Part shown: piece by piece, positions 36,820 through 40,901 of the stretch
Layout of the letters: every line of letters starts with the position of its first letter
Numbering within the stretch: position 1 is the first letter of the stretch
The notes under the pieces: model-generated
Told to the model about the DNA's origin: nothing
What the model saw: only the letters and a program-made list of their open reading frames with translations
Databases searched by the model: none
Position numbers and translations under genes: made by a program
NCBI GenBank assembly: GCA_034435035.1
Contig: DAOTXW010000079.1
Coordinates: 1,551-65,550, forward strand
DNA: 64,000 bases
From: Anaerolineae bacterium
GTDB taxonomy: Bacteria; Chloroflexota; Anaerolineae; Aggregatilineales; UBA3940
Reading direction: 5' to 3'

Positions 36820-37353
36820 ATGATCAGGGTAGAAATTGACAGTATCCGCGTTAGCCTGATGACTCAGGATCGAGTAGTGATTCTCAAGGATCCGGAAACC
36901 GACCGCTACCTGGCTATCTGGATCGGGCCGTTCGAGGCGGATGCCCTGCGCGTGCAGTTGGCAGGAATGGAAGTGACCCGCCCCCTTACGCATGACCTGC
37001 TTAAATCGGTCATCACGGAGATGGGTGGTAAGATTGAGAGCGTCATCGTGACCGATCTCAACAACGATACGTACTTCGCCCGCATCAACATCATGGCTAA
37101 TGGGCGTAAGCTGGAAGTGGATGCGCGGCCAAGCGATGCTATCAACCTCGCAGTGCGGGCCAGAGTGCCGATCTACGTTGAAGAGTCAGTGATGGAGCGC
37201 GCCATGATCCGCCCGGAGGACGAGATCGAAGGCGAGCCCGAAGCAGTCGACAAGCCGGCCGCTGAGGCGTCTGAGCCTGATGATGAAAAAGACCTCGACG
37301 TGTTCAAGGACTTCCTGAATTCACTGGATCTCGACGACCTGGGCGATGAGTAA
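36820..37353 (+). CDS. Bifunctional nuclease (BFN/DUF151 domain) protein with acidic C-terminal tail
   Basis: VVILKDPETDRYLAIWIGPFEADAL, THDLL, VIVTDLNNDTYFARI and DARPSDAINLAVRARVPIYV are the family-typical blocks. Confidence 0.8.
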   Translation: MIRVEIDSIRVSLMTQDRVVILKDPETDRYLAIWIGPFEADALRVQLAGMEVTRPLTHDLLKSVITEMGGKIESVIVTDLNNDTYFARINIMANGRKLEVDARPSDAINLAVRARVPIYVEESVMERAMIRPEDEIEGEPEAVDKPAAEASEPDDEKDLDVFKDFLNSLDLDDLGDE

Positions 37354-37492: not shown

Positions 37493-38857
37493 ATGTCACA
37501 AGCCGCTTCAGGTGATCTGCGCTCCGAGCAGCTGGCTCCCCACAGCGTGGAAGCCGAGGAGGCTGTGCTGGGATCGATTCTGATCAATCCCGAAGCACTT
37601 TTCGAAGTACTCTCGTTCCTGCATGCCGAGGACTTCTTCATCGTCCGGCATGGCTGGATATGGGAAGCAATGCTGAGCCTTCATGAACGCCGCGATCCCA
37701 TTGACTACCTCACGGTGGTGAACGAGCTTGAGCAGTTGGGGCGGCTGTCCGAGGTCGGCGGCGCAGCCTACATCCTGAGCCTGATTAACAAGACCCCCTC
37801 GGCTCTGAACATCGAGGGTTACGGACGGATCGTCGAGCGCATGGCTGTCCGGCGGCGGCTGATCGACGCCGCCGGACAGATCGCCCGGGTGGCACATTCT
37901 GAAGAACCGGATATAGAGACCGTCGTCAGCAAAGCCGAGCAGGCGATCTTTGAAGTTACCGAACGCCGCCTGTCCCGTGAGCTGGTGCCGATACGCAACG
38001 CGGTCAGCGAGTATTTTGACCATGTCAGCTTCATGGCCCGCCATCAGGAAGAGGTGCTGGGTGTTCCCACCGGCTTCATTGATCTTGACCGGATGCTGGG
38101 CGGCCTCCAGCGCTCTGACCTGCTGATCATCGCCGCCCGCCCCGGCATGGGGAAATCAAGCTGGCTGAACAGTGTGGTGATGAATGCTGCCCGCTCGAAT
38201 CAGCGGGTTGCGATGTTCAGCCTCGAGATGAGCAACGAGCAGTTGGTGCAGCGTTTTGTTAGCGCCGAGACCAACATCCCTTCGCATAAGCTGCGCGAGG
38301 GCAAGCTGGATGAAAAGGATTGGGCTCAGTTCCTGGCAGCAACCCAGTACATTGGTACGCTGCCCATTTATATGGATGATACCCCCGCTCTGAGCACTTC
38401 CGACCTCCGCACCAAGGCCCGCCGGCTGCATCTGGAGATGGGGCTGGACCTGGTAGTCATTGACTATCTGCAGCTCATGACCACGCCCTATCGCTCCGAG
38501 AACCGCGTGCAGGAGATCTCCTATATCTCCCGCTCGCTCAAACAGCTGGCGCGTGAGCTGAATGTTCCCGTGGTGGCTGCCGCCCAGCTCTCGCGGGCTG
38601 TGGAGCAGCGCACCGATAAACGCCCACTGCTGTCCGACCTGCGCGAGTCCGGCAGCATTGAACAGGACTCCGATGTCGTGATGTTCATCTACCGCGATGC
38701 CTATTACAACCCTGAGACACCTGAGGGAAACAAGGCGGAAATCCACATTGCCAAGCATCGCAACGGGCCCACCGGCGTGGTGGAGCTGATCTTTATCCCC
38801 GCGCTGACGCAGTTCCAGAACGCGGCGCGCCACAGCATCGACCTGGACAAGATCTGA
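37493..38857 (+). CDS. dnaB: Replicative DNA helicase DnaB
   Basis: N-terminal PHSVEAEEAVLGSILI; Walker A ARPGMGKSS; Walker B VVIDYLQLM; AQLSRAVEQR; IAKHRNGPTG. No intein (454 aa). Confidence 0.95.
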   Translation: MSQAASGDLRSEQLAPHSVEAEEAVLGSILINPEALFEVLSFLHAEDFFIVRHGWIWEAMLSLHERRDPIDYLTVVNELEQLGRLSEVGGAAYILSLINKTPSALNIEGYGRIVERMAVRRRLIDAAGQIARVAHSEEPDIETVVSKAEQAIFEVTERRLSRELVPIRNAVSEYFDHVSFMARHQEEVLGVPTGFIDLDRMLGGLQRSDLLIIAARPGMGKSSWLNSVVMNAARSNQRVAMFSLEMSNEQLVQRFVSAETNIPSHKLREGKLDEKDWAQFLAATQYIGTLPIYMDDTPALSTSDLRTKARRLHLEMGLDLVVIDYLQLMTTPYRSENRVQEISYISRSLKQLARELNVPVVAAAQLSRAVEQRTDKRPLLSDLRESGSIEQDSDVVMFIYRDAYYNPETPEGNKAEIHIAKHRNGPTGVVELIFIPALTQFQNAARHSIDLDKI

Positions 38858-39543
38858 TGCAGGGCTTCAATGGCTTCCCGTCGCGGGGTCGGCTGATCAA
38901 GGTGCCTGCGCTTTTCTTCAGCGACCTGTTGCCACAGATTGACAGCCTGGCGGAGCTGAAGGTCACCCTTTACTGTCTATGGCGCGTGCAGTACCTGGAA
39001 GGGCATCGCGTGTTTGTACGCAGGCACGAGATTGCTGCCGATGAGGCCTTCATGGCCGGTCTGGGAACACGGGACGATCAACGCCGCCTGGCGCTGGATG
39101 ATGGCCTGGAGCGCGCCGTGGCCCGCGGTAGCCTGCTGCATGTTCATGTGGAATACAATTCTCAGGAAGATGACCTTTACTTTGTCAACACCGAGCGCGG
39201 CCGGGCCGCTGTGAGAGCTATCGAGGAGGGTTCGTGGTTCCCTGAGCGCGACGGCAGCCTGCCGGCCAGCGTCACGGTGGAGCGGCCGGCGGTATTCACT
39301 CTGTACGAGCAGAACATTGGCGCGCTGACGCCTCTGCTGGCCGAGAACTTGGCCGACCTCGAACGCGAATATTCCTATGAGTGGCTGGCCGATGCGATCG
39401 AAGCAGCGGTGAACAACAACGTGCGTAAGCTGTCCTATATCTCGGCCATCCTCAAGCGCTGGCGCGAGCAGGGTCGCCCTGCTCAGCCTCGTTCGGGCGA
39501 CTGGTATATCAGCGGCAAGTACAGCGACGAAATCGAGTATTGA
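38857..39543 (+). CDS. DnaD-domain replication protein (DnaD/DnaB_2-like)
   Basis: The C-terminal block YEQNIG-LTPLLAENLADLEREYSYEWLADAIEAAVNNNVRKLSYISAILKRWREQG matches the DnaD/DnaB_2 C-terminal domain pattern. TGATG overlap with the dnaB stop. Confidence 0.6.
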   Translation: MQGFNGFPSRGRLIKVPALFFSDLLPQIDSLAELKVTLYCLWRVQYLEGHRVFVRRHEIAADEAFMAGLGTRDDQRRLALDDGLERAVARGSLLHVHVEYNSQEDDLYFVNTERGRAAVRAIEEGSWFPERDGSLPASVTVERPAVFTLYEQNIGALTPLLAENLADLEREYSYEWLADAIEAAVNNNVRKLSYISAILKRWREQGRPAQPRSGDWYISGKYSDEIEY

Positions 39544-40901
39544 GCATGAGCTACTCCGATCAACATTATGGCGCGGGAGATCCCGCCTGCCCGATCTGCG
39601 GCGGGGTCGGATATCTATGCTACGATGTCCCTGAGAGCCATCCGCACTTCGGCAGGGTCTTCAGCTGCCAGTGCCGCAAAGCCGATCAGCTCGCGGAACA
39701 GCAGGCTTATCTGCGGCGGCTCGGCGGGCTGGAGAATCTGGCCAGCAAGACATTCGCGACCTTCAACCCGCAAGGTGCCGGGCTGAGCCTGATCGAGCGC
39801 GATCGGGTCAACCTGCAGTTAGCCTATGAACTGGCGCGCTCTTACGCCGATCAGCCGCATGGGTGGTTGATCTTGATCGGCGGCTATGGCTGTGGCAAGA
39901 CTCATCTGGCGGCTGCCATCGCTAACGCTCAGGTCGAGGCGGGGCGCCCGGTCCTGTTCGTCACAGCCCCCGATCTGCTCGACCACCTTCGCGCTTCATA
40001 TCAGGAGGATGTCGACCAGGAATCCGGTTATGCCGCCCGCTTCGACGAGGTCCGCACTATCCCGCTGCTCGTGCTGGATGATGTGGGTACCGAGAGCCCC
40101 ACTCCCTGGGCCATGGAGAAGCTCTACCAGATCCTGAATCACCGCTACAATGCCCAGCTCCCAACGGTGATCAGCACCAACCAGAGCCTTGAGGAGTTTG
40201 ATCCCCGCATTCGCTCCCGCCTCTCCGATCCGGATATCAGCCAGATCGTAAGCATTACCGCGCCCGACTATCGCCGGGCCATCAGCAGCGCGCAGAGCGA
40301 TCTGAACACACTGGGGCTATATAAAACCAAGACGTTCAGTTCCTTTGATGCAGATCGCGGCCTGCCCAGGAAAGAAGCAGACAACCTGAGGTTGGCTTAT
40401 CAGGTCGCCCGCAGCTTCGCAGACAGCCCCGATGGCTGGCTGATCCTGACCGGGACCTATGGCTGTGGAAAGACCCATCTGGCAGCAGCCATTGCCAATG
40501 AACAGGTCATCCGCAACACTGGCGTGATGTTTGTGACGGTTCCCGATCTGCTCGATCATCTCCGCGCCGCCTATGCACCGAACAGCCCGGCATCGCCCGA
40601 CCGGCGATTCTCGGAGGTCAAGACCGCGCCGCTGCTGGTGCTGGACGATCTGGGCACCGAATCTGCCACCCCCTGGGCCAGCGTCAAGCTCTATCAACTG
40701 CTGAACTACCGCTACGAGGCGCGCCTCCCCACCGTAGTGACCACAGCGTACCGCGTTGATGAGCTGGAATCCCGGATCGACCCCCGGCTGGCCATCCGCA
40801 TGCGTGATAAACGCATCAGCAAAGTGCTGGCCATCCTGGCCCCGGCTTACCTGGGCGAGCGCACTCGCCCTCCACGTGAAGCAGCGTCGGGTGCGAGGTA
40901 A
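39540..40901 (+). CDS. Tandem-duplicated DnaC/DnaI (IstB-like AAA+) helicase-loader ATPase with N-terminal Cys cluster
   Basis: N-terminal CPICGG...C...CQC. Two collinear ~185-aa AAA+ modules follow, at aa 62-246 and aa 255-438. Each has a Walker A (GGYGCGKTHLAAAIAN / GTYGCGKTHLAAAIAN) and a Walker B (LLVLDDVGTE / LLVLDDLGTE). Confidence 0.75.
   Translation: MSMSYSDQHYGAGDPACPICGGVGYLCYDVPESHPHFGRVFSCQCRKADQLAEQQAYLRRLGGLENLASKTFATFNPQGAGLSLIERDRVNLQLAYELARSYADQPHGWLILIGGYGCGKTHLAAAIANAQVEAGRPVLFVTAPDLLDHLRASYQEDVDQESGYAARFDEVRTIPLLVLDDVGTESPTPWAMEKLYQILNHRYNAQLPTVISTNQSLEEFDPRIRSRLSDPDISQIVSITAPDYRRAISSAQSDLNTLGLYKTKTFSSFDADRGLPRKEADNLRLAYQVARSFADSPDGWLILTGTYGCGKTHLAAAIANEQVIRNTGVMFVTVPDLLDHLRAAYAPNSPASPDRRFSEVKTAPLLVLDDLGTESATPWASVKLYQLLNYRYEARLPTVVTTAYRVDELESRIDPRLAIRMRDKRISKVLAILAPAYLGERTRPPREAASGAR

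What the first reader, a model, noticed from the sequence alone, without database searches (positions are those of the whole stretch)
39540..40901. Helicase-loader candidate is a covalent tandem of two complete DnaC/DnaI-type AAA+ modules
Seen: after an N-terminal Cys cluster (CPICGG..C..CQC) the protein has two collinear ~185-aa modules, at nt 39723-40277 and 40302-40853. Walker A is nearly identical in both (G(G/T)YGCGKTHLAAAIAN), as is Walker B (LLVLDD(V/L)GTE) and the block (P/S)TPWA...LYQ(I/L)LN(H/Y)RY...LPTV. Both ATP sites look intact. The gene follows dnaB and a DnaD-domain gene with overlapping stops and starts. Established: DnaC and DnaI act as single-AAA+ protomers that oligomerise on the DnaB hexamer. 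Inference: a fused dimer would load as a trimer of dimers and could allow division of labour between the two sites. I do not recall this being described.
Basis: partly seen in the sequence, partly recalled or inferred. Interest (0 to 1): 0.6.

Follow-up and report, generated by a model that had tools for sequence, protein, structure and literature searches.

The report
Double-module helicase loader of Chloroflexota
The gene is real: it is the chromosomal replicative-helicase loader of Anaerolineae bacteria, built from two fused DnaC/DnaI-type ATPase modules of which only the first keeps every residue needed to hydrolyse ATP, an arrangement found in hundreds of species that I could not find described in the literature.

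Summary
ORF 39546-40901 (451 aa) has a four-Cys zinc ribbon followed by two DnaC/DnaI-type AAA+ modules. Pfam IstB_IS21 matches twice, and the halves are 56% identical (E 8e-66). It is not an assembly artefact. The halves share only 60% nucleotide identity (43% at third codon positions). The identical gene occurs in two independent assemblies. All 80 best species-level genome loci (Anaerolineae lineages) carry a two-module gene. A DnaD-domain gene lies just upstream in 78 of these 80 loci, and dnaB lies upstream of that in 47.

Module 1 keeps every residue shown to be essential in E. coli DnaC. Module 2 keeps Walker A, Walker B, the Arg finger and the ssDNA contacts, but it has Ala at sensor I (Asn in only 2 of 80 species) and, in this sub-lineage, Leu at sensor II. 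Module 2 probably binds ATP but cannot hydrolyse it.

The "trimer of dimers" idea is untested, and one covariation test leans against alternating modules. Related loci carry 3-4-module, reversed-order and viral single-module forms. I found no prior description. This is a new variant of a known kind, of moderate interest.

The parts
37493..38857 (+). dnaB replicative helicase (454 aa). Its stop overlaps the next gene's start by 1 nt.
   Evidence: Pfam DnaB_C E 1.8e-105 and DnaB N-terminal domain E 6e-31. Junction sequence. dnaB lies upstream on the same strand in 47 of 80 related loci.
38857..39543 (+). DnaD-domain gene (228 aa), a probable co-loader or adaptor.
   Evidence: Pfam DnaB_2 (PF07261) E 1.2e-7 and NCBIfam DnaD_dom E 9.8e-10. 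A homologue was found upstream of the loader in 80/80 loci by tblastn and lies within 400 nt in 78/80.
39546..40901 (+). Tandem helicase-loader gene (451 aa from the ATG; an alternative TTG start lies at 39540; stop TAA at 40899-40901).
   Evidence: An identical protein is encoded in two independent assemblies.
39582..39725 (+). N-terminal four-Cys zinc ribbon plus long helix (aa 13-60), the presumed helicase-binding domain. The Cys residues are C15, C18, C41 and C43.
   Evidence: The four Cys are conserved in 116-119 of 120 homologues. The AF2 model has two short strands followed by helix 42-60. NCBIfam PRK08116 covers this region from aa 15. Phage and viral single-module loaders align from about aa 10-15.
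39738..40286 (+). AAA+ module 1 (aa 65-247), catalytically complete. Residues: Walker A K118, Walker B D178/D179, sensor I N212 (nt 40179-40181), Arg-coupler R221, Arg finger R225, sensor II R243, ssDNA contacts R149/Y152/T186/W188.
   Evidence: Mapped onto E. coli DnaC residues that were tested by mutagenesis. K, DD, N, Arg finger and sensor II are each 80/80 in species-level loci. The fold matches DnaI 2w58 and DnaC 6qem.
40266..40316 (+). Inter-module hinge (aa 241-257). It carries a shorter copy of the pre-AAA+ 'L..L..KTF..F' linker motif.
   Evidence: Residues 241-250 are the lowest-confidence internal block of the model (pLDDT 62). The family consensus shows the duplicated linker motif.
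40317..40862 (+). AAA+ module 2 (aa 258-439), degenerate. It keeps Walker A K309, Walker B D367/D368, Arg-coupler R414, Arg finger R418 and ssDNA contacts R340/Y343/T375/W377. Sensor I is Ala (A401, nt 40746-40748) and sensor II is Leu (L436, nt 40851-40853).
   Evidence: Module 2 sensor I across 80 species: A 63, S 10, T 2, N 2. Module 2 sensor II is Arg in 66 of 80 species, but Leu in this sub-lineage (41 of 120 close clusters).

Best explanation
This is the chromosomal DnaI/DnaC-type replicative-helicase loader of an Anaerolineae (Chloroflexota) bacterium. It is co-transcribed and translationally coupled with dnaB and a DnaD-domain gene.

Origin. The protein is a phage-type single-module loader (zinc-ribbon helicase-binding domain, linker, one AAA+ module) whose linker-plus-AAA+ unit was duplicated long ago.

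Module 1 sits directly after the zinc ribbon. It keeps every residue needed for ATP hydrolysis, so it is the working ATPase.

Module 2 still has an intact P-loop, Walker B, Arg finger and the four ssDNA-contact residues. It has lost the sensor I Asn (Ala here), and in this sub-lineage also the sensor II Arg (Leu). It most likely binds ATP and ssDNA and takes part in ATP-dependent assembly, but does not hydrolyse ATP. In effect it is a built-in ATP-locked partner.

Proposed steps:
1. The zinc-ribbon domain docks on the C-terminal face of DnaB (inferred from homology).
2. ATP-bound modules assemble into a DnaC-like open spiral that holds DnaB open and grips ssDNA (inferred).
3. Hydrolysis in module 1 releases the loader (inferred).

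Quaternary arrangement is the weakest step. I lean slightly towards six chains per DnaB hexamer. In that picture the six module 1 copies form the canonical spiral through M1-M1 contacts, and the module 2 copies form a second, non-hydrolysing layer or extension of the spiral. The alternative is three chains with alternating modules.

My probabilities: identity as the helicase loader about 0.9; module 2 hydrolysis-deficient about 0.7; six-chain like-with-like arrangement about 0.4, against about 0.35 for three chains. The overall confidence given (0.65) refers to identity plus functional asymmetry, not to the arrangement.
For: Shown:
- Two IstB_IS21 hits, and PRK08116 above its cutoff.
- The halves are 56% identical at the amino-acid level and 60% at the nucleotide level, with 43% identity at third codon positions.
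- The same gene occurs in two independent assemblies.
- The 120 best 90%-clusters are full-length tandem proteins (414-498 aa, 85-100% of the query covered). More than 100 of the best 150 50%-cluster representatives are also full length. All 80 best species-level loci have two modules.
- A DnaD-domain gene lies just upstream in 78 of 80 loci, and dnaB lies upstream in 47 of 80.
- Each module matches DnaI 2w58 (TM 0.74) and DnaC 6qem (TM 0.68).
- Viral and phage relatives are single-module with the same zinc ribbon, and 11 of 12 examined keep the sensor I Asn.
- One tree split separates 176 of 194 first modules from second modules. Canonical single-module proteins fall on the M1 side.

Residue mapping. 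E. coli DnaC K112, E170, N203, R220 and R237 are each essential for ATPase, and N203A is the mutant most defective in loading (PMC8213410). Module 1 has K118, DD, N212, R225 and R243, each 80/80 across species. Module 2 has K309, DD and R418 conserved, but A401 at sensor I (Asn in 2 of 80 species) and L436 at sensor II.

Arrangement. Among representatives with a live M1 and a degenerate M2, the trans-acting Arg-coupler of M1 is kept in 46 of 47, while that of M2 is kept in 27 of 47. The M1 coupler co-varies with M1's own sensor I (OR 42, p 5e-7).
Against: - No biochemistry exists for any family member.
- A polar Ser or Thr at sensor I, seen in 12 of 80 species, could still support hydrolysis in those proteins.
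- Sensor II Arg is retained in module 2 in most species (66 of 80), so module 2 is less degenerate family-wide than it is in this window.
- The coupler test is confounded by generally relaxed constraint on module 2 and by shared ancestry among the sequences.
- I could not inspect the coordinates of the AF2 model. Its pTM is only 0.64 and the hinge has low confidence.
- The four-module relative (P0121) fits neither a simple 6x2 nor a simple 3x2 scheme.
- More distant subfamilies, mainly Dehalococcoidia/SAR202, lack the sensor I Asn in both modules or have the order reversed. The 'M1 live, M2 dead' rule is therefore not universal.
Confidence: 0.65

Rival explanations
1. Three tandem chains bind one DnaB hexamer and their six modules alternate M1-M2-M1-M2-M1-M2 in a single DnaC-like spiral. 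Only three zinc-ribbon domains engage DnaB, and live and dead ATP sites alternate.
For: - Two modules times three chains gives the six AAA+ positions seen in E. coli DnaB6-DnaC6 (PMC8213410).
- The Arg finger is invariant in both modules (R225 and R418, each 120/120). This is expected if each finger completes the other module's ATP site.
- The predicted arrangement of the two modules is not a p97-like D1/D2 stack (rmsd 12-18 A).
- A three-module variant (P0122) would also divide six evenly.
Against: - The coupler test points the other way. The coupler that would face the live M1 site (R414 of M2) is the less conserved one, and the coupler that would face the dead M2 site (R221 of M1) is nearly invariant.
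- Three of the six loader-binding sites on DnaB would be left empty.
- The four-module variant P0121 does not divide six.
- No direct structural evidence was obtainable here.
Confidence: 0.35
2. Module 2 is an intramolecular regulatory pseudo-protomer. It packs against module 1 of the same chain, supplying or withholding R418. This would pre-form a composite ATP site, or auto-inhibit oligomerisation until DnaB, DnaD or ssDNA is engaged. It would not be a stoichiometric building block of the spiral.
For: [quoted passage not shown] Control at that surface therefore has precedent.
- Module 2 keeps its Arg finger while losing its own catalytic sensors.
- The model has high local confidence in both modules and a single hinge between them.
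Against: - Module 2 also keeps an invariant P-loop, Walker B and all four ssDNA-contact residues. A pure regulatory cap would not need these.
- pTM 0.64 does not indicate a rigid intramolecular dimer.
- The 3- and 4-module variants are hard to explain as caps.
Confidence: 0.12
3. A rival on origin only. The tandem arose by fusion of two already distinct loader lineages, an M1-type and an M2-type that had already lost sensor I, and not by internal duplication.
For: - Stand-alone zinc-ribbon proteins with a single M2-like module exist. One is L086 3926-4750, with sensor I Ala and sensor II Gly, next to its own DnaB on a viral contig. P0214 and P0245 are similar.
Against: - M1 and M2 of the window protein are more similar to each other (56%) than either is to the best viral relatives (48-50%).
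- The pre-AAA+ linker motif is duplicated along with the module.
- The M2-like stand-alone genes could equally be captured host genes that lost M1.
- The NJ tree is poorly rooted.
Confidence: 0.2
4. The tandem is an artefact, either an assembly duplication or a read-through of two adjacent genes. Or it is not a replication protein at all but an IS21 IstB-type transposition helper.
For: The best Pfam hit is named IstB_IS21. The window comes from a metagenome-assembled genome.
Against: - The halves share only 60% nucleotide identity, so they cannot have been collapsed or duplicated by an assembler.
- The reading frame is continuous, and the gene is identical in two independent assemblies.
- The two-module gene is present in all 80 species-level loci examined.
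- No transposase is adjacent. The context is the conserved dnaB-dnaD cluster.
- The NCBIfam IS21 helper model scores 149 against a cutoff of 200.
Confidence: 0.01

Closest known systems
Bacillus/Geobacillus DnaI and the PRK08116-type 'DnaC-like' loaders of Firmicutes and their phages
   Same: N-terminal zinc-binding helicase-interaction domain, a linker, and a DnaC/DnaI-type AAA+ module with Walker B 'DD'. Works alongside a DnaD-domain protein and a DnaB-family helicase. Best sequence hit among solved structures is G. kaustophilus DnaI 4m4w (E 2e-16). Best single-module fold hit is DnaI 2w58 (TM 0.74). PRK08116 scores above its cutoff.
   Different: DnaI and the phage loaders have one AAA+ module per chain (phage and viral matches span 800 nt or less). 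This protein has two, the second without a sensor I Asn. The NCBIfam DnaI equivalog scores 139 against a cutoff of 228, so it is not a DnaI orthologue by that model. The zinc site here is a four-Cys ribbon, and Pfam DnaI_N was not detected.
E. coli DnaC (DnaB6-DnaC6 complex, PDB 6QEL/6QEM)
   Same: The AAA+ fold matches (TM 0.68, rmsd 2.7 A). Every catalytic and ssDNA-contact residue of DnaC (K112, D169/E170, N203, R216, R220, R237, K143/F146/S177/Y179) has an equivalent in module 1.
   Different: DnaC has a short helical N-terminal domain without zinc, and a single module. The NCBIfam DnaC equivalog scores 112 against a cutoff of 357. Module 2 naturally carries the equivalents of the N203A and R237 loss-of-function mutations.
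IstB, the IS21 transposition helper ATPase (PDB 5BQ5, 8Q3W)
   Same: Same Pfam family (PF01695) and the same initiator/loader AAA+ clade.
   Different: No IstA transposase is adjacent. The gene sits in a conserved chromosomal dnaB-dnaD context. The IS21_help_AAA model scores below its cutoff (149 against 200). IstB has a single module.
Type II AAA+ proteins (p97/Cdc48, NSF, Rix7) and other assemblies with built-in inactive AAA+ sites (dynein or midasin concatenated rings, clamp-loader delta/delta' subunits). The comparison with dynein, midasin and the clamp loader rests on my own knowledge plus PMC7973254.
   Same: Two AAA+ modules in one chain, one catalytically weak but nucleotide-binding. 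The general principle is the use of degenerate sites for assembly.
   Different: A different AAA+ clade (classic clade, not the initiator/loader clade). The whole-chain Foldseek superpositions are poor (rmsd 12-18 A, TM 0.3-0.39), so the predicted module arrangement is not a D1/D2 stack. Helicase loaders act as switches, not as processive motors (PMC7973254).

Membership tests
DnaC/DnaI-type AAA+ helicase loaders (Pfam PF01695, initiator/loader clade) | AAA+ domain matching the family profile above the curated threshold | tested here: met
   PF01695 scores 124 bits against a cutoff of 24.1, with two stretches. Both modules also match the solved DnaI and DnaC AAA+ domains by sequence, and the model matches those folds.
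DnaC/DnaI-type AAA+ helicase loaders (Pfam PF01695, initiator/loader clade) | Complete ATPase motif set: Walker A Lys, Walker B acidic pair, sensor I Asn, Arg finger, sensor II Arg | tested here: met
   Met by module 1: K118, D178/D179, N212, R225 and R243, each 80/80 across species. Not met by module 2: A401 at sensor I and L436 at sensor II.
DnaC/DnaI-type AAA+ helicase loaders (Pfam PF01695, initiator/loader clade) | One AAA+ module per polypeptide, oligomerising on DnaB | tested here: not met
   There are two modules per chain here and in all 80 related species loci. Relatives with 3-4 modules also exist.
DnaC/DnaI-type AAA+ helicase loaders (Pfam PF01695, initiator/loader clade) | N-terminal helicase-binding domain that contacts DnaB | not testable with these tools
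   A conserved four-Cys zinc ribbon plus helix (aa 13-60) occupies the right position and is shared with phage DnaC-like loaders. Binding to DnaB was not tested.
DnaC/DnaI-type AAA+ helicase loaders (Pfam PF01695, initiator/loader clade) | Initiator-specific helical insertion between beta2 and alpha2 that carries ssDNA contacts | tested here: inconclusive
   The model has two helices (141-150 and 162-171) between strands 136-140 and 174-178. Equivalents of DnaC K143/F146 (R149/Y152 and R340/Y343) are conserved. The geometry could not be inspected.
DnaC/DnaI-type AAA+ helicase loaders (Pfam PF01695, initiator/loader clade) | Genomic and functional association with the replicative helicase | tested here: met
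   The dnaB-dnaD-loader cluster has overlapping or abutting stops and starts. dnaD is adjacent in 78 of 80 loci and dnaB is upstream in 47 of 80.
NCBIfam PRK08116 subfamily | Whole-protein score above the curated cutoff | tested here: met
   235.3 bits against a cutoff of 189. The first stretch covers aa 15-252 of the protein and positions 17-259 of the 269-position profile.
NCBIfam equivalogs DnaI (PRK08939) and DnaC (PRK07952) | Whole-protein score above the curated cutoff | tested here: not met
   DnaI scores 139 against 228. DnaC scores 112 against 357.
IS21 IstB transposition helper | Score above the IS21_help_AAA cutoff, and an adjacent IstA transposase | tested here: not met
   149 bits against a cutoff of 200. 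The neighbours are DnaB, a DnaD-domain protein, a BFN-domain protein and a thioredoxin-like protein, with no transposase.
Type II stacked-ring AAA+ proteins (p97/NSF-like) | Two AAA+ modules arranged as a D1/D2 stack | tested here: not met
   Two modules are present, but whole-chain superpositions on p97, Cdc48 and Rix7 give rmsd 12-18 A and TM 0.30-0.39. The caveat is that the model's pTM is 0.64.

The most novel reading that the evidence does not exclude
The tandem works as a covalent live/dead heterodimer. Three chains would build a pseudo-hexameric loader spiral on DnaB, with alternating hydrolysing and non-hydrolysing ATP sites and only three helicase-binding domains. That would be a helicase-loading stoichiometry and ATP-use pattern not seen in DnaC, DnaI, lambda P or DciA systems. 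The 3- and 4-module relatives would be further steps towards a single-chain loader.
Probability: 0.3. Interest if true: 0.7.

Novelty: new variant of a known kind. Interest (0 to 1): 0.55.

Why it matters
Open questions for bacterial helicase loaders include how many ATP sites must fire, how many loader-helicase contacts are needed to crack the DnaB ring, and what the AAA+ spiral adds beyond the helicase-binding domain. In E. coli these are studied with engineered point mutants such as N203A and R237D.

Chloroflexota provide a natural, conserved, covalently linked pair in which one module carries the wild-type set and the other carries the loss-of-function states. There are also lineages with the reverse order, with neither module carrying the sensor I Asn, and with three or four modules. 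This gives an evolutionary series for testing which sites and what stoichiometry matter.

It also corrects annotation. These genes are labelled only 'ATP-binding protein' or 'DnaC'. It adds detail to the account of phage-derived dna[CI] domestication in Chloroflexi.

It does not overturn how loaders are thought to work.

Tried and rejected
- Assembly or duplication artefact: rejected. The halves are 60% identical at the nucleotide level and 43% at third codon positions. The gene is identical in two assemblies. The tandem is present in 80 of 80 species loci.
- IS21 IstB helper: rejected. It scores below the NCBIfam cutoff, has no transposase next to it, and sits in a conserved dnaB-dnaD context.
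- p97-like stacked arrangement: not supported by Foldseek.
- N-extended single-module relatives (P0253, P0258, P0261, P0267, P0268, P0218) as DnaD-loader fusions: no Pfam domain in the extensions. Dead end.
- NJ tree rooted on short E. coli DnaC and G. kaustophilus DnaI fragments: an uninformative ladder. Replaced by a best-split analysis of the unrooted tree.
- My first hmmalign column map was shifted by one residue and was corrected. The hmmalign counts for the module 2 Arg finger and sensor II were partly misaligned and were re-checked by motif search. This showed that the sensor II Leu is specific to this sub-lineage, not family-wide.
- AFDB fold search, intended to find named cultured organisms: the library was unavailable.
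- Cluster-name look-ups gave only MAG names and no cultured species.
- I could not access the model coordinates, so the intramolecular M1-M2 interface was not measured.
- Six full-text literature searches found no description of a tandem DnaC/DnaI loader. Subscription-only papers were not searchable.
- No second loader-like gene was found in the 64-kb window. The rest of the genome was not available.
Full report
**1. What is in the sequence**

The ORF runs from 39540 (TTG) or 39546 (ATG) to 40901 on the + strand. The identical database protein starts at the ATG and is 451 aa, and I use its numbering.

- Pfam IstB_IS21 (PF01695) matches with two stretches, E 7.8e-36.
- NCBIfam PRK08116 matches with two stretches, 235 bits against a cutoff of 189. 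The first stretch covers aa 15-252 and almost the whole profile. So the zinc ribbon plus module 1 looks like a complete ordinary loader, and module 2 is an added copy.
- The two halves align over 180 aa at 56% identity, E 8e-66.
The one slip is that the third block reads PTPWA / ATPWA.
- The upstream genes are a BFN-domain gene, dnaB (DnaB_C, E 1.8e-105) and a DnaD-domain gene.
- The dnaB stop overlaps the dnaD start by one base. The dnaD stop is 2 nt before the loader ATG.

**2. Not an artefact**

- Codon-aligned nucleotide identity between the halves is 60%, and 43% at third positions. Only 48 of 99 identical residues use the same codon. This is an old duplication, not one created by an assembler.
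- The identical gene and neighbourhood occur in an NCBI MAG (GCA_964451875.1) and in an independent Logan assembly of SRR10095374.
- The 120 best 90%-identity clusters are all 414-498 aa and cover 85-100% of the query, nearly all at least 92%.
- An exhaustive search of 50%-identity representatives gave 702 hits below 1e-30. More than 100 of the best 150 are full-length tandem proteins, with identity down to about 33-40%.
- A scan of one genome per species gave 460 relatives. The best 80 loci come from Anaerolineae, Anaerolineales, Caldilineales or Thermoflexales, or from records labelled only Chloroflexota, Chloroflexi or uncultured bacterium. All 80 encode exactly two modules.

**3. Context**

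- A DnaD-domain gene was found upstream of the loader in 80 of 80 loci by tblastn, and lies within 400 nt in 78 of 80.
- dnaB is upstream on the same strand in 47 of 80. In 20 loci with enough upstream sequence dnaB is elsewhere, and 13 loci are cut by a contig end.
- A divergent tandem on a 3.3-Mb contig sits in rplI-dnaB-dnaD-loader order.
- No transposase is nearby, and the IS21 helper model scores below its cutoff.
- Brezellec et al. 2016 list one or more dna[CI] genes and no dciA for every Chloroflexi genome they surveyed. They count this as one phage-gene domestication and do not mention the architecture.
- Together this identifies the gene as the chromosomal replicative-helicase loader.

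**4. The two ATP sites are not equivalent**

Puri et al. 2021 (PMC8213410) define for E. coli DnaC:
- Walker A K112, Walker B E170, sensor I N203, Arg-coupler R216, Arg finger R220 and sensor II R237;
- the ssDNA tetrad K143/F146/S177/Y179.

K112R, E170Q, N203A, R220D and R237D each abolish ATPase, and N203A is the mutant most defective in loading.

HMMER alignments to DnaC, DnaI and Aquifex DnaC and a three-way alignment map these residues as follows:

| Element | Module 1 | Module 2 |
|---|---|---|
| Walker A Lys | K118 | K309 |
| Walker B | D178/D179 | D367/D368 |
| Sensor I | N212 | A401 |
| Arg-coupler | R221 | R414 |
| Arg finger | R225 | R418 |
| Sensor II | R243 | L436 |
| ssDNA contacts | R149/Y152/T186/W188 | R340/Y343/T375/W377 |

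Across the 80 species-level loaders:
- Module 1 has K, DD, N, Arg finger and sensor II Arg in 80 of 80.
- Module 2 has K in 80 of 80 and DD in 79 of 80. Its sensor I is A 63, S 10, T 2, N 2 and other 3.
- The module 2 Arg finger is 120/120 in the close family.
- Sensor II Arg is kept in module 2 in 66 of 80 species. It is Leu in the sub-lineage that contains this window (41 of 120 close clusters, and L004).

So module 2 of this protein carries natural equivalents of two ATPase-dead DnaC mutations. Its nucleotide-binding, trans-acting and ssDNA-contact residues remain under strong constraint. The simplest reading is that it binds ATP and ssDNA but does not hydrolyse ATP.

**5. Structure**

- AlphaFold2 with a 70-sequence alignment gave mean pLDDT 89 and pTM 0.64. 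The model shows a zinc ribbon plus long helix, two alpha/beta modules, and a low-confidence hinge at aa 241-250.
- Foldseek matched single modules to DnaI 2w58 (TM 0.74, rmsd 2.9 A) and E. coli DnaC 6qem (TM 0.68, rmsd 2.7 A).
- Two-module p97, Cdc48 and Rix7 chains superpose poorly as wholes (rmsd 12-18 A), so the predicted arrangement is not a D1/D2 stack.
- I could not read the coordinates, so the M1-M2 interface was not measured.

**6. Evolution**

- A single split of a neighbour-joining module tree separates 176 of 194 first modules from second modules.
- Canonical single-module proteins (sensor I Asn, sensor II Arg) fall on the M1 side.
- The extra modules of P0121 and P0122 also fall on the M1 side, and the last module of each falls on the M2 side.
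- About a dozen proteins have both modules on the M1 side, which suggests later independent duplications. P0143's two modules are each other's nearest neighbours. In P0109 only module 2's nearest neighbour is its partner.
- In GenBank phages (860 records hit) and IMG/VR (561 relatives), every match I examined spans 800 nt or less, i.e. one module. These proteins carry the same zinc ribbon, and 11 of 12 examined have the sensor I Asn. The best is 50% identical to the query.
- This fits domestication of a phage-type single-module loader followed by duplication of the linker-plus-AAA+ unit.

**7. Wider variation**

Among 86 complete two-module representatives:
- about 50 have Asn at sensor I in module 1 only;
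- 4 have Asn in both modules;
- about 5 have Asn in module 2 only;
- about 27 have Asn in neither, for example (S,R) and (R,S).

Source names place the (R,S) class and the reversed-order class in SAR202, Dehalococcoidia or unclassified Chloroflexota. The clean 'M1 live, M2 degenerate' rule therefore holds for the Anaerolineae family that includes this window, not for every tandem loader.

**8. Quaternary arrangement (inference only)**

In DnaC the Arg-coupler sits next to the Arg finger and acts in trans on the neighbour's gamma-phosphate and sensor I.
- An alternating M1-M2-M1 spiral (three chains) predicts that the M2 coupler, which faces the live M1 site, is conserved, and that the M1 coupler is relaxed.
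- The data show the opposite. Among representatives with live M1 and degenerate M2, the M1 coupler is kept in 46 of 47 and the M2 coupler in 27 of 47.
- The M1 coupler tracks M1's own sensor I (OR 42, p 5e-7). The M2 coupler tracks M1's sensor I only weakly (OR 2.1, p 0.12).

This leans towards M1-M1 contacts, meaning six chains with module 2 as a second layer or as an extension of the spiral. It is confounded by generally relaxed constraint on module 2 and by shared ancestry. I put about 0.40 on the six-chain arrangement, about 0.35 on the three-chain alternating model, and about 0.12 on an intramolecular regulatory role for module 2.

**9. Novelty and verdict**

- The gene family is already counted as the Chloroflexi dna[CI] loader.
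- The tandem architecture, the conserved asymmetry and the multi-module variants were not described in any paper I could search.
- Source names are only 'ATP-binding protein' or 'DnaC'.
- It is a new variant of a known kind: a real, widespread and mechanistically informative loader, not a new class of system.
- Interest 0.55.

Noticed in passing
L083:5001-7484 (protein P0121, 827 aa): A four-module loader (zinc ribbon, then M1, M1', M1'' and M2) in the same dnaB(intein)-dnaD-loader locus on a 64-kb contig. Two contigs carry it. Its modules are 40-65% identical with about 37-45% identity at third codon positions, so the extra copies are old. Sensor I reads N, N, N, F. Four modules do not divide six.
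   Followed up: partly
protein P0122 (792 aa, ENA contig of 5.7 kb): A loader with at least three modules, all with Walker B 'DG' in place of 'DD' and with sensor I A, A, Q. Another 150 aa at the C-terminus are unassigned. It may be a degenerate paralogue or a truncated four-module form.
   Followed up: no
proteins P0188, P0207, P0269 (order reversed) and P0139, P0146, P0138 (neither module with sensor I Asn): Divergent tandem loaders in which the first module lacks the sensor I Asn and the second is complete, or in which both lack it. For the clusters that carry names (P0146, P0188, P0269), the sources give SAR202, Dehalococcoidia or unclassified Chloroflexota, including marine (Tara) samples. 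P0138 sits in an rplI-dnaB-dnaD-loader cluster on a 3.3-Mb contig (L084).
   Followed up: partly
L086:3926-4750 (IMGVR_UViG_3300035136_000050, 57.6 kb): A viral contig encodes a 274-aa zinc-ribbon protein whose single AAA+ module is M2-like (sensor I Ala, sensor II Gly). It is flanked by an AAA_25 protein, a pol-beta-thumb protein and its own DnaB helicase. Either a mobile element captured the host loader and lost module 1, or an M2-type loader lineage exists on its own.
   Followed up: partly
L083:2433-4259; also L032, L038, L039, L041, L043, L057, L063, L065, L072, L076: The DnaB helicase in L083 is 608 aa with a Pfam Intein_splicing hit. In the other listed loci the best tblastn match to DnaB stops near residue 389-407 and lies more than 1 kb before dnaD, which suggests intein-containing dnaB genes in many Anaerolineae. 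The window's own dnaB has no intein.
   Followed up: no
window 36820-37353 (+): A BFN-domain (bifunctional nuclease, PF02577) gene lies directly upstream of dnaB. It is found in the same position in 38 of the 80 related loci, so the conserved cluster is BFN-dnaB-dnaD-loader. Any link between this nuclease-domain protein and replication was not examined.
   Followed up: no
proteins P0253, P0258, P0261, P0267, P0268 (397-536 aa): Single-module canonical loaders (Asn and Arg sensors) with N-terminal extensions of 150-300 aa that match no Pfam family. They are not DnaD fusions.
   Followed up: partly
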